NCBI GenBank assembly: GCA_951406725.2
Contig: OX597818.1
Location: forward strand, 77,128,001-77,192,000
From: Octopus vulgaris
Taxonomy: Eukaryota
DNA: 64,000 nt
Reading direction: 5' to 3'
Shown here: positions 8,676-50,815 of the stretch, one piece after another
How the letters are laid out: the number at the start of each line of letters is the position of its first letter
How positions within the stretch are numbered: position 1 is the stretch's first letter
The notes under the pieces: model-generated
Database searches by the model: none
The model's input: only the letters and a program-made list of their open reading frames with translations
What the model was told of the DNA's origin: nothing
Position numbers and translations under genes: made by a program

Positions 8676-9262
8676 TGGAAGTTGATAATGCTTTAAAGCA
8701 TTTTGATTTATATTTAAATGCAAGGTTATTAAAAATGATCTCATTACATGATGAATATTTCACATTTATTTTTTATATGTATGTTTGTGTGTATATGTGT
8801 GTATGCATGTGTGTGTGTGAGTGCATGTGTGTGTGCACGTGTGTGTGTATGTGTGTGTGTGCGCGTGTGTGTGTGTAATAATAATAGTAATAATAATCCA
8901 TGGTGGAATTTATAAATATTTTAATGCATTACTACATATGTTTCCACGAATCACATATTTCTTAAGATCATAGTCCATATTCCTGGGATGATTACAGTAC
9001 AATCCATTGACATCAAGTGGATACATTCATTTCATCAGGTGCATGTGATTTGTGGAAACACACATAACAATGCATTAAAATATTTATAAATTTCATCCAT
9101 GGATTATTATTATCATTACTATATTTATCCTACATTATATCAGCACAGCTTGGTACAACCCCATAAAACTGCTATTGCAAATTGATATCATTCGGTTGTA
9201 GCTGATATATTAAAATAGAGCTTTTATACACATACTCAAAAACGTTTTGCTGTAAACAAAGA

Positions 9263-9297
<35 letters not shown>

Positions 9298-9894
9298 TAT
9301 ATATATCCTCTTTGTTTACAGCAAAACGTTTTTGAGTATGTGTATAAAAGCTCCTATTTTAATATATCAGCTACAACCGAATGATATCAATTTGCAATAG
9401 CAGTTTTATGGGGTTGTACCAAGCTGTGCTGATATAATGTAGGATAAATATAGTAATGATAATAATAATCCATGGATGGAATTTATAAATATTTTAATGC
9501 ATTGTTATGTGTGTTTCCACAAATCACATGCACCTGATGAAATGAATGTATCCACTTGATGTCAATGGATTGTACTGTAATCATCCCAGGAATATGGACT
9601 ATGATCTTAAGAAATATGTGATTCGTGGAAACATATGTAGTAATGCATTAAAATATTTATAAATTCCACCATGGATTATTATTACTATTATTATTACACA
9701 CACACACGCACACACACACATACACACACACGTGCACACACACATGCACTCACACACACACATGCATACACACATATACACACAAACATACATATAAAAA
9801 ATAAATGTGAAATATTCATCATGTAATGAGATCATTTTTAATAACCTTGCATTTAAATATAAATCAAAATGCTTTAAAGCATTATCAACTTCCA
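8676..9894. repeat. 1.2-kb near-perfect palindrome (about 590-bp arms, (TA)n centre) in the zinc-finger intron
   Basis: 8676-9265 is the reverse complement of 9306-9894 with only a few substitutions/indels. The same spurious ORF appears on both strands (8648+ and 9895-). Confidence 0.95.
9532..9641 (+). ncRNA. Degenerate type-I hammerhead motif (mirror copy on the minus strand at 8931-9040)
   Basis: ac-CTGATGA-a-atgaat...attcgt-g-GAAA-catatg-TA-gt. Palindromic stem III, GUA site, weak stem I. Confidence 0.5.
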
Positions 9895-33505: not shown

Positions 33506-33568
33506 TGATAACTGAAGAGATGTCGGCGTGGGTTTCTGCCCCGACATCCGAAACTCAGAGTTTTATCA
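33506..33568 (+). ncRNA. Type-I hammerhead ribozyme motif
   Basis: tgataa-CTGAAGA-gatgtcgg...ccgacatc(c)-GAAA-ctcagag-TT-ttatca. Stem I 6 bp, stem II 8 bp, GUU site. Confidence 0.75.
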
Positions 33569-33774: not shown

Positions 33775-34060
33775 ACTTTTTCAATTCCTGAGCGTTATAC
33801 TAATACATGTTTGTTTTGTACACCACCTGTCTTCGTCTTTTGTTTTTTCCATGAACTCTCCCCCTGTATATATATATATATAATAATAAATATTAGGGAA
33901 TAAATCCAAATTTACAGGGAAAAAATCAGATTTAGGATTAAATCCAATTTTATAGTAAAATATTATAAAATATTATTAGAGACAAAACCACTATTTTGCA
34001 AAACAAACAAGGAAAGACTTAATCAATACATAAAATTTTAATAAATAGTCAAAAAAACCG

Positions 34061-34103
34061 CCACTACAATTGTTTCTTGTCTTGATCGACAATCTTCAGG
34101 TGG
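34061..34103 (-). ncRNA. Intact minimal type-I hammerhead ribozyme (minus copy)
   Basis: Exact reverse complement of 34151-34193. Confidence 0.85.
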
Positions 34104-34150
34104 ACTTCCAATAAGTCAGTTTCAAATAATGAAACTGACTTATTGGAAGT

Positions 34151-34193
34151 CCACCTGAAGATTGTCGATCAAGACAAGAAACAATTGTAGTGG
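34151..34193 (+). ncRNA. Intact minimal type-I hammerhead ribozyme
   Basis: ccac-CTGAAGA-ttgtc gatcaa gacaa-GAAA-caattg-TA-gtgg. All core nucleotides present, palindromic stem III, GUA site. Confidence 0.85.
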
Positions 34194-34280
34194 CGGTTTT
34201 TTTGACTATTTATTAAAATTTTATGTATTGATTAAGTCTTTCCTTGTTTGTTTTGCAAAATAGTGGTTTTGTCTCTAATA

Positions 34281-34320
<40 letters not shown>

Positions 34321-42704: not shown

Positions 42705-42935
42705 TTTCTTTTCTTTTATTCTTTTACTTGCTTTAGTGATTTGACTGATGCCATACTGGAGCACCGCCTTTAGTCAAGCAAATCGACCCCAGAGCATATT
42801 TTTTGTAAGCCTAGTACTTATTCTATCAGTCCATTTTGCCAAATTGCTAAGTCACGGGAACGTAAACACACCGGCATTGGTTGTCAAGCGATGTTGGGGG
42901 GGAGGACAAAGACACATTAATATATACACACACAC

Positions 42936-42970
<35 letters not shown>

Positions 42971-43082
42971 CATACACACCGGAGTAAACACATGAATGTG
43001 AAACAAGGTGGAAAAAAGAGTACTCAAATACCAGTGGTAGAGTAATATGCTTTATTTAAAGCAGCAGAAAATTCAACAAAAT

Positions 43083-43120
43083 CTGTTACTCTGAGTTTCT
43101 CGTTGCCGTTCATCAGACAG
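43083..43120 (-). ncRNA. Minimal type-I hammerhead motif (minus copy)
   Basis: ctgt-CTGATGA-a cg GCAA cg a-GAAA-ctcagag-TA-acag. Confidence 0.7.
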
Positions 43121-43133
43121 TTTCTAGCAAAAA

Positions 43134-43171
43134 CTGTCTGATGAACAGCAACGAGAAACTCAGAGTAACAG
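43134..43171 (+). ncRNA. Minimal type-I hammerhead motif (plus copy, stem II weakened)
   Basis: ctgt-CTGATGA-acagcaacga-GAAA-ctcagag-TA-acag. Confidence 0.6.
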
Positions 43172-43389
43172 ATTTTGTTGAATTTTCTGCTGCTTTAAAT
43201 AAAGTATATACATACACATATATACAGCGGGCTTCTTTCAGTTTCTGCCTACCAAATCCACTTACAAGGCTTTAGTATAGTCACGAGGCTATAGTAGAAG
43301 GCACTTGCCCAAGGTTCCATGCAGTGGGACAGAACCCGAAACCATATGGTTGGTAAGCAAGCTACTTACCACACAGCGACTCCTATGCC

Positions 43390-43428
<39 letters not shown>

Positions 43429-49329: not shown

Positions 49330-50815
49330 ATTAATATATATATACATAGATGCATTCAAATATATGAGATATGATAAAATTTATAAGAATTTATAAACAC
49401 ATATACATACGAAGATTTATAAATATATAAAGATTCTTAAGTATATAAAAAATTTACAAATATATAAAAATTTACAACCACATAAAGATTCATAAATATA
49501 TAAACACATAAATATAAATACACAGATGTACATGTAAAGTCCGAATGTCCATATTAGAAACAATGATGAGGGTAAATAAGAAAGTTAGTATAAAATGATT
49601 CATGAGGAATCCTAAATAGGGAGAAAATCTTACAGCCGTTTCGAGAAGATATAGGTTGATATGAGCAAGCAACCTCCAACCATAGCAGTTATCTATACTT
49701 CTCTCATCAGAGTTAAGGGATTCAAAGAGTTAAAATTTTAAGAGGTATGAGAAATTTGAGAATTTTTTAAAAAGGAATGTTTAGTCGAACCATACTCTTC
49801 AAGCAGATGACATAATTAAAATTAAAACTACAGGTTAAGGTTCATTAAGAAGCTATATATAATAGTATTTTAAGAAGAGTCTATGATATTCCATTATTAT
49901 AGCCCAATCTAGACTGAATTCTTTATTGTGCAATTTTAATTTATTGATGTGGGTAGCTAGTGTGATTGAATTTTTAGTTTTGTGGTTAGTGAATGAGTTT
50001 GTATGCACCCTATATCTAATTTTAAAATCAGTTGTACTACCTATATAAATCTTTTTACGTTTGTTTAAGATTGAGACTTCAACCTTATCAACAACATTTC
50101 TTCTTAAACAGAAACCTTTTAAGGGACAAAGCTCCCTATTGCGACAATTACATGTTTTATTTGTTTTATTTCCAGGTTTAGTCTTTCTATTTTTAATATC
50201 AGTGTTCTTATTATTGTTCTTCATATTAAGGTCAGCTAAGTTATCTCTATTAGTGTTGTTATTTCTAAGTTTAATTCTATTGTTAGCCACGATAATAGAT
50301 CCCAGATTGGGTGTGGTTGAGTAAGATAATTTAAGGCAGTTCTATTAAACATAGAGTGATATTTATGACCTAGTGGGATGTTCCTATCAATAACGCTAAA
50401 AATAACTTGGGGAGGTTTCTTACCTGGAGGAAAAAGTGGAGTGTGAACCATATAATTTCTTGTCCCCTCCCTAAGTTGTTCTTATTGTGCTCAGTATGGT
50501 TATTGTTATAACTGAATAAGTTATAGCATCTTTTAAAGTGTCGTTGGTTTCTATATTCAGTAGGATTGTTCATGGGAGGTGTGTCAATGTTTGAATTCAC
50601 AATATTTGGGAACTGTTTGCCTAATTTGTTTTTAAATATTATGTTTTTGATATAATATATTTTCCTATTAAATCCGCTATCTTTTAGTGCTGCGTTATAA
50701 AGGGGTGCAAAATCATTGAAGATCTTTCCATTTGCAGATAAATTAGATATTCTTATTGACATACATTTGATTATCCCCTTAATGACACACTAGGGATGAT
50801 TTGATAAGGCGTGGA
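49330..50815 (-). mobile_element. Penelope-like element remnant (Naiad-type RT thumb, CxC...CP..G.C linker, GIY-YIG endonuclease) with a downstream pLTR-like region
   Basis: RISNLSAN.KIFN..APLYNAALKDSGF, IIWF, HSMFNR and TCNCRNRELCPLKGFCLRRNVV...IYIGSTTDFKIRYRVHTNSF...LATHI...WAII. Confidence 0.85.
49626..49714 (-). ncRNA. Type-I hammerhead motif just 3' of the Penelope GIY-YIG ORF
   Basis: aact-CTGATGA-gagaagtatag...ctatatcttctc-GAAA-cggctg-TA-agat. Confidence 0.75.

What the first reader, a model, noticed from the sequence alone, without database searches (positions are those of the whole stretch)
43050..43204. Second, unrelated two-ribozyme palindrome inserted inside a SINE
Seen: 74-bp arms (1 mismatch) around a 7-nt loop, with 38-nt HHR motifs on both strands only 13 nt apart. 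The minus copy keeps a GCAA-capped stem II. The unit sits in the internal microsatellite of a CORE-type SINE (42710-43390), so it is younger than the SINE. It shares its architecture but not its sequence with 33964-34290, which suggests a recurrent mechanism such as fold-back priming just upstream of the ribozyme during reverse transcription (inference).
Basis: partly seen in the sequence, partly recalled or inferred. Interest (0 to 1): 0.75.

Follow-up and report, generated by a model that had tools for sequence, protein, structure and literature searches.

The report
Head-to-head Penelope retrotransposon stub with hammerheads
This DNA palindrome is a cut-short, head-to-head insertion of a common Penelope-type jumping gene whose end carries a predicted self-cutting RNA motif; the kind is known, but its many copies suggest that the two halves were likely copied separately from the element's RNA, one from each strand of a TA repeat, not by fold-back.

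Summary
In detail: 74-bp arms, one mismatch, a 7-nt loop and a 38-nt minimal hammerhead on each strand. The unit is really 42979-43204: the 3' repeat (pLTR) of a young Hydra-clade Penelope-like retrotransposon (3.35-kb unit, intact 711-aa ORF, 5,814 exact hits of its 22-nt end), inserted head-to-head. One arm has a 71-nt tail; a 14-bp target duplication is likely. The SINE is an incidental (TA)n target. Opposite-strand hammerhead pairs and inverted 5' copies are already described for these elements. Simple fold-back cannot make this copy: each arm holds sequence the other lacks, and the short arm usually ends in a base fitting the target. Twin priming from two fixed RNA sites fits better. Arms pile up at a wall 17 nt before the ribozyme core (55 of 100 stop there, 2 of 45 in the next 12 nt), likely the transcription start; arms rarely stop at the predicted cut site. 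Transcription start, cleavage and one-versus-two RNAs are unshown. Earlier notes of this scan reached a similar reading for other Penelope families in this genome.

The parts
42979..43123 (-). Long arm: last 145 nt of the element's pLTR (positions 0 to -144, counted from the tail end)
   Evidence: 98.6% identical to the 3' end of the intact unit in L171; 2 differences
42979..43049 (-). 71-nt tail, present on one arm only; in tandem copies it lies just before the ORF
43083..43120 (-). Minimal type I hammerhead (helix I CUGU/ACAG, helix II CG-GCAA-CG, helix III ACUC-A-GAGU); predicted cut between 43087 and 43086
   Evidence: same layout as Hydra-2_aMil in the supplement of PMC8557442
43122..43204 (+). 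Short inverted arm: pLTR positions -153 to -71, ending one base after AATAAA
43122..43123 (.). Junction of the two arms, 2-nt TT overlap; this exact junction occurs 11 times in the genome, in both orientations relative to the tail
43134..43171 (+). Second hammerhead; G>A at 43147 (a CpG site) breaks helix II
42965..42978 (+). Left copy of a likely 14-bp target site duplication (1 mismatch)
43205..43218 (+). Right copy of the likely duplication; T at 43205 stands where the element has C, read as the target-derived primer end
42710..43390 (-). Host tRNA-headed SINE whose internal microsatellite was the target
   Evidence: empty copies about 80-87% identical; tRNA head and CORE likeness judged by eye from recalled motifs
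33890..34295 (.). Palindrome of a second, unrelated family with the same long-arm/short-arm layout and a tail of about 70 nt

Best explanation
The palindrome is a 5'-truncated, head-to-head insertion of the pLTR of a Hydra-clade Penelope-like retrotransposon, likely made when both nicked strands of a (TA)n target primed reverse transcription at two fixed sites on the element's RNA. Shown: family, parent element, two fixed outer ends (0 and -71), variable inner ends with a wall at -151 to -155. Inferred: the GIY-YIG nuclease makes staggered nicks about 14 bp apart; each 3' end ...TATA primes a cDNA, one at the tail end and one at -71; both run towards the RNA's 5' end, probably a capped start at -154 inside the upstream pLTR; the two cDNAs join by 0-6 nt of overlap or short filler. 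Because both priming sites also lie in the 5' leader, before the ORF, priming there can only give stubs of up to 154 nt; long copies need priming at the downstream pLTR. The template is mostly uncut by the hammerhead. Once inserted, either strand's transcript is predicted to fold into one long hairpin that masks both ribozymes. My odds: PLE identity 0.97, twin priming 0.8, wall = transcription start 0.65.
For: Parent: pLTR-ORF-pLTR units of 3,354 bp with partial tandems and kb-long inverted copies; 13 intact 727-codon frames; model (pLDDT 93) has TERT as best PDB match, E 9e-10. Sample of the first 82 tail hits on contig C1: 73 have a long arm under 270 nt, 54 an inverted partner ending at -64..-80. 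Priming marks: T instead of the element's C after AATAAAG in 45 of 54 short arms, C in 3, 6 unread; TATA instead of the element's TCTA after the tail in 69 of 82, TCTA in 8. Duplications of 14, 14, 14, 16 and 20 bp exact in 5 of 13 informative loci, plus 14 bp with one mismatch here; 7 show none. Short arm reaches further upstream than the long arm in 31 of 54, less far in 15, equal in 8; no overlap at all in 6. Wall: 13 of 24 long and 18 of 22 nearby short arms reaching -151 stop by -155; (hand count of 100 listed of 3,448) 55 stop at -151..-156 and 2 of the other 45 in the next 12 nt (Fisher p 8e-10). -154 is the A of CC/CT-ATTCT, an initiator-like site (motif recalled). Next to (TA)n an extra G precedes -154 in 7 of 13 hits, C in 4, A in 2. 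Stops near the cut site: 2 of 62 long, 0 of 50 short arms. Helix I pairing probability about 0 in the palindrome, 0.98 for three of four pairs in the leader. Two RT start sites flanking the tail, nicking of both strands and use of uncut RNA were shown in vitro for another PLE (PMC11167929).
Against: No RNA 5' end was seen. The extra-G excess is small (7 G vs 2 A, p 0.09) and TAGA repeats can supply a G. The wall is also the foot of the extended helix I and holds the self-complementary CTAG, so structure or microhomology may add to it. 18 of 54 junctions hold filler and 4 long overlaps, so repair is mixed. In L1 twin priming the two pieces do not overlap (PMC2837659), whereas here 48 of 54 do, which needs strand displacement, repeated copying or two RNAs. 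Pfam finds no family on the protein; the nuclease is assigned by motifs. The sample is one end of one contig and needs an exact 22-nt tail, so it favours younger copies.
Confidence: 0.75

Rival explanations
1. Fold-back (self-priming): one cDNA, or an antisense template, folds on itself near the ribozyme and is copied back.
For: Published for rotifer PLEs from junction palindromes (passages). 15 of 54 loci have the long arm reaching further, as fold-back allows. L110 has the junction expected if a cDNA ending at -154 folds on helix I. L042 has a short 17-bp inversion at its 5' end. Arms of one locus agree at 338 of 356 subfamily sites.
Against: Here the short arm has 9 nt (-153..-145) missing from the long arm and the long arm has the tail, so neither is a copy of the other. 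31 of 54 loci are like this, 6 without any overlap; 5 have a perfect centre with no loop (4 at CTAG, plus L095). The fixed short-arm end with a T in place of C fits a primer, not a stop. The antisense-template form of the published idea was not tested as such.
Confidence: 0.12
2. Dual priming: two RNAs, possibly paired through the near-palindromic helix III of their hammerheads, each template one arm.
For: Helix III self-duplex -7.4 kcal/mol; minimal PLE hammerheads are thought to act as dimers (PMC4209133); a dimer is predicted for the Anolis protein; overlapping arms are simply explained; L012 differs at 3 of 6 subfamily sites between arms.
Against: 46 of 59 loci agree at all scored sites; 95% agreement within loci against 57% between, so two RNAs would nearly always have to come from the same source. 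Long arms stopping at -51..-56 (6) with none at -57..-65 fit a collision on one RNA (small numbers). This rival is a sub-case of the best explanation, not exclusive of it.
Confidence: 0.3
3. The palindrome is an autonomous-looking unit that spreads as such (a MITE-like or retrozyme-like element, or a passenger of the SINE).
For: The top 40 genome hits are all full palindromes of near-equal size.
Against: That is query bias: junctions vary widely in unbiased copies; this junction occurs 11 times among thousands, in both orientations and on both alleles at -79; ends are not inverted repeats; no head-to-tail monomer arrays in the sample; 1 of 82 lies inside the SINE.
Confidence: 0.03
4. The wall at -154 is a pause or cut caused by RNA structure rather than a transcription start.
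For: The extended helix I is predicted to close at about -153; CTAG at -151 favours joining.
Against: A polymerase meets a hairpin at its 3' side (about -92), where no stops were seen at -82..-92; non-inverted copies also end at -154 against (TA)n.
Confidence: 0.25

Closest known systems
Hydra clade of C-terminal EN+ Penelope-like elements (Craig et al. 2021, PMC8557442), e.g. Hydra-2_aMil, Hydra-1_Obim, Penelope-13_HM
   Same: RWK, DKT, CxCX5C-type linker, CxxC and CxH motifs, no CCHH, (TA)n target, hammerhead in the 3' repeat; Hydra-2_aMil has the same helix I and an actc-N-gagt helix III; Penelope-13_HM is listed with an inverted 5'-truncated copy and a hammerhead on each strand
   Different: Different hammerhead from Hydra-1_Obim, so another family; unit 3.35 kb (clade usually under 3 kb); tail 71 nt against 30-40 nt given for PLEs; linker reads CNFK in 9 of 13 intact copies; thousands of copies
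Poseidon of Anolis carolinensis (PAc; Frangieh et al. 2024, PMC11167929)
   Same: Two fixed RT start sites that define the tail; AT-rich target; uncut RNA as template
   Different: In PAc the sites lie inside the ORF (111-118 bp in); here both lie before it. The sections read do not treat inverted insertions or a 5' run-off wall
Minimal type I hammerheads of metazoan PLEs (Cervera and de la Pena 2014, PMC4209133)
   Same: Core, 4-bp helix I, palindromic helix III; the paper notes pairs 100-700 bp apart on opposite strands in Schistosoma
   Different: Pair only 13 nt apart; helix II of 2-3 bp without the G10.1-C11.1 pair; U4C core variant in 32 of 74 arms
L1 twin and dual priming (described in PMC2837659)
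   Same: Both target strands prime; inversion inside a target duplication
   Different: In L1 it is occasional, the internal site varies and the pieces do not overlap; here it is the majority outcome, the second site is fixed and the arms usually overlap
Animal non-LTR retrozymes (bioRxiv 10.64898/2026.07.22.740005)
   Same: Non-coding, type I hammerhead, PLE-derived
   Different: Defined as head-to-tail tandems; this is head-to-head and collinear with a coding element

Membership tests
EN+ Penelope-like element | Single ORF with telomerase-like RT | tested here: met
   711-aa ORF, YRDD invariant in 117 of 117 rows; best fold match TERT; Pfam and PDB sequence searches blank
EN+ Penelope-like element | C-terminal GIY-YIG endonuclease | tested here: met
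   By motif only: GVVY...YTG, FKTR..H, E and N conserved; no Pfam hit on this protein; a homologue has PF01541
EN+ Penelope-like element | pLTRs from partial tandems, inverted 5'-truncated copy, tail at one end | tested here: met
   features as in PMC8557442 fig. 2 legend
EN+ Penelope-like element | Target site duplication | tested here: inconclusive
   5 exact and 1 near of 13 informative loci
Hydra clade | RWK and DKT motifs | tested here: met
   13 of 13 intact copies
Hydra clade | CxCX5C linker | tested here: met
   CNCKNESSC in 4 of 13 copies, CNFKNESSC in 9; second C in 116 of 117 alignment rows
Hydra clade | No CCHH; CxxC and CxH around the conserved E and N | tested here: met
   no cysteine between VVY and YTG; CRLC/CKLC and CRH present
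Hydra clade | Insertion into (TA)n | tested here: met
   TATA follows the tail in 69 of 82
Hydra clade | Placement in the RT phylogeny with named members | not tested
   no tree built
Minimal type I hammerhead | Core CUGANGA/GAAA, helix I, palindromic helix III, NUH | tested here: met
Minimal type I hammerhead | Helix II closed by G10.1-C11.1 | tested here: not met
   commonest form A-CG-GCAA-CG-A; A-U closure in 20 of 95 arms
Minimal type I hammerhead | Self-cleavage | not testable with these tools
   few arm ends at the cut site
Non-LTR retrozyme | Head-to-tail tandem of hammerhead monomers | tested here: not met
MITE | Terminal inverted repeats, fixed internal structure | tested here: not met
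   asymmetric ends, variable centre; definition recalled
CORE-SINE (host element) | About 60-bp CORE domain | not tested

The most novel reading that the evidence does not exclude
Hydra-clade elements integrate by programmed two-strand priming: one complex primes both strands of a TA repeat at two hard-wired sites in the capped 5' leader, so most events are strong-stop-like run-off copies of the leader joined head to head, and the hammerhead serves less as a knife than as a clasp whose palindromic helix III pairs two RNAs for this step.
Probability: 0.25. Interest if true: 0.72.

Novelty: new member of a known kind. Interest (0 to 1): 0.42.

Why it matters
How Penelope-like elements make their inverted repeats is called undefined in PMC8557442, and self-priming is the hypothesis in PMC3846280. 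A young family with intact ORFs and thousands of insertions records the priming sites, nick spacing and 5' stops, argues against simple fold-back, and names the RNA leader, protein and target for a direct test. It also explains the many two-hammerhead palindromes in this genome as insertion by-products that are predicted to be silent as ribozymes but to form long double-stranded RNA if transcribed.

Tried and rejected
Rfam scan: only microsatellite- and hairpin-driven miRNA matches among those shown. Pfam on the fragment and the ORF, and PDB sequence searches: nothing usable. Sequencing runs: no RNA holder listed; contigs laid on the leader showed no splice joint and cannot show a start; contigs laid on the locus could not show an empty allele because paralogues swamp it. 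Empty orthologous sites: no related genome is held. A parent ORF for the 33890-34295 family was not found: the ORF piece in L218 is followed by a hammerhead like the one at 33512. Cut-site truncation as source of the stubs: rejected. Cap G: of 100 listed arms, 33 run on upstream and 67 end at -154, of which 31 are preceded by G, but 16 of these are explained by the partner arm's own GCTAG, so it is not decisive (hand count). Rows dropped: 4 of 58 flagged inversions (L063, L076, L129, L135) for ends outside -64..-80; inverted partners of long copies (L061, L070, L128, L135) are outside the 54; L022 and L024 are duplicates. Literature: Penelope + twin priming + inverted + retrotransposon gave 2 papers, neither on PLEs by title or abstract; octopus + Penelope + hammerhead gave no description of this family in the listing; further searches. 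Subscription papers and Repbase are outside the library, so absence from print is not shown. A look-up of this sequence in earlier scan notes was blank.

Full report
Observation. The arms, mismatch, loop and two 38-nt hammerhead motifs are as described. Five motifs fit my type I descriptor in the window (33512 +, 34155 +, 34099 -, 43138 +, 43116 -) against 0.07 per shuffle over 30 shuffles. Rfam showed no hammerhead model among the 150 of 262 matches listed.

The unit. A genome search gave 460 candidates, 40 scored. In 28 distinct loci the shared sequence runs from CCGGAG (window 42979) to AATAAAG (43204), mostly between (TA)n runs. One arm is longer by a 71-nt tail. A 22-nt piece of the tail has 5,814 exact matches and its reversed control none. 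The SINE halves are contiguous in empty copies, so the insertion is younger than this SINE copy; 13 of 82 sampled copies have some SINE piece nearby and 1 has both halves around it.

The parent. Longer copies run upstream into a 3' UTR and a reading frame. Its C-terminal 77 residues gave 7,903 candidates, 150 scored, many as opposite-strand pairs a few kb apart. Twenty regions chosen for long frames show pLTR-ORF-pLTR units of about 3.35 kb, partial tandems and inverted copies with arms 98-99.9% identical. Thirteen intact 727-codon frames differ from L171 by 2-17 residues. The protein has 1,043 homologues at E 1e-10 or better; a model from 117 sequences (pLDDT 93.4) matches telomerase RT best. 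Its motifs are those that PMC8557442 gives for the Hydra clade (passages; supplement part 2; test). No tree was built. Earlier scan notes call the host an octopus; I did not test this.

What is known. PMC8557442 (passages and part of one supplement) shows the inverted 5'-truncated copy and one-sided tail as typical and lists Penelope-13_HM with a hammerhead on each strand. PMC4209133 (parts 1-2 of 4) reports minimal hammerheads in pLTRs, pairs on opposite strands 100-700 bp apart and low activity as dimers. PMC11167929 (parts 1-2 of 4) shows two RT start sites bounding the tail, cutting of both strands and uncut RNA as the main template. PMC3846280 (passages) proposes self-priming for the inversions. 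PMC2377424 (passages) shows an internal promoter with an initiator in Drosophila Penelope. PMC2837659 (passages) describes L1 twin and dual priming; PMC9341517 (passages) links an untemplated 5' G to the cap. The retrozyme preprint was read in part 1 of 5 (its supplements are closed); PMC4824008 in passages. So the two-ribozyme palindrome is a known product of a known kind of element.

How it was made. I took the first 82 of the 100 listed tail hits, all on the first 35 Mb of contig C1, and mapped arm ends to one natural copy, counting from the tail end as 0 (core C -137, cut -108/-107). Outer ends are fixed: 0 and -71. At both, the next base usually fits the target rather than the element: T for C after AATAAAG in 45 of 54 short arms (3 C, 6 unread) and TATA for TCTA in 69 of 82 tails (8 TCTA). 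This is what two ...TATA primers with a few bases of imperfect pairing would leave (inference). Duplications of 14-20 bp appear in 6 of 13 informative loci, this one included. Inner ends vary. The short arm goes further upstream in 31 of 54, the long arm in 15, neither in 8; in 6 they do not overlap. In this copy the long arm ends at -144 and the short arm at -153, so neither is contained in the other and one folded cDNA cannot give both. Junctions: 23 overlaps of 1-6 nt, 9 blunt, 18 with filler, 4 longer overlaps.

The wall. Of arms reaching -151, 13 of 24 long and 18 of 22 nearby short arms stop by -155 (long inverted partners are not in the short-arm count). Of the first 100 of 3,448 pattern hits, by my hand count 55 stop at -151..-156 and only 2 of the remaining 45 within the next 12 nt; 2,045 hits reach -158 genome-wide (a different pattern, so not a strict ratio). 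Position -154 is an A in a pyrimidine context resembling an initiator (recalled) and also the foot of an extended helix I. An extra G before it next to (TA)n occurs in 7 of 13 hits, suggestive only. In tandem copies both priming sites lie between -154 and the ORF, so priming on the leader of a transcript starting at -154 would give exactly these stubs. The second family (33890-34295) has the same layout; among its first 100 of 290 pattern hits I saw none sharing sequence upstream of ACTTCAT (by eye), which agrees with a wall, but its parent was not found.

The ribozyme. Stops near the cut site are 2 of 62 long and 0 of 50 short arms, so the template was mostly uncut. Helix II is only 2-3 bp and varies: position -121 is A 51, G 21, T 20, C 3; the core has U4C in 32 of 74. 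In the palindrome both strands fold into one hairpin of about -126 kcal/mol and helix I has probability near 0. Activity is unshown.

One RNA or two. Arms of a locus agree at 338 of 356 subfamily sites against 57% between loci; 46 of 59 loci agree fully, 11 differ at one site, L080 at two and L012 at three (includes query-selected loci). One RNA copied twice, two RNAs from one source, or later conversion between arms all fit. Six long arms stop at -51..-56 and none at -57..-65, which would fit collision with the second primer, but the numbers are small.

Verdict. A new family of a known clade; the feature itself is an ordinary PLE insertion product. Its value lies in the junction record, which favours two-strand priming and 5' run-off over the fold-back idea and makes the question testable. 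Earlier notes of this scan, read after my own reading was formed, describe the same pattern for other families in this genome; they are unchecked and are not counted as support.

Noticed in passing
window 33508-33568 (+): A third type I hammerhead with helix III ACTC-A-GAGT and a long helix II; a similar motif follows a Hydra-type nuclease C-terminus in L218, so probably the pLTR of another family.
   Followed up: partly
window 33890-34295: Second family: long arm with a tail of about 70 nt, 1,152 candidates, near-identical copies, arms stop at ACTTCAT; no parent found.
   Followed up: partly
window 49895-50804 (-): Decayed remnant of a related PLE reading frame, tblastn E 4e-10 and 3e-7.
   Followed up: no
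window 8771-9801: 448-nt inverted repeat, 94% complementary, 135-nt spacer.
   Followed up: no
L171-L186 reading frames: Intact copies split at a linker cysteine that is otherwise nearly invariant: CNFK in 9, CNCK in 4 of 13.
   Followed up: no
L047:562-733 (reverse strand): A short arm is joined to an unrelated palindrome of about 127 bp.
   Followed up: no
L183:8372-9068: A 349-bp head-to-tail duplication of the pLTR without tail, carrying two hammerheads in tandem.
   Followed up: no
family position -136: Core variant CCGA (U4C) marks a subfamily, 32 of 74 arms; the motif in L218 has it too.
   Followed up: partly
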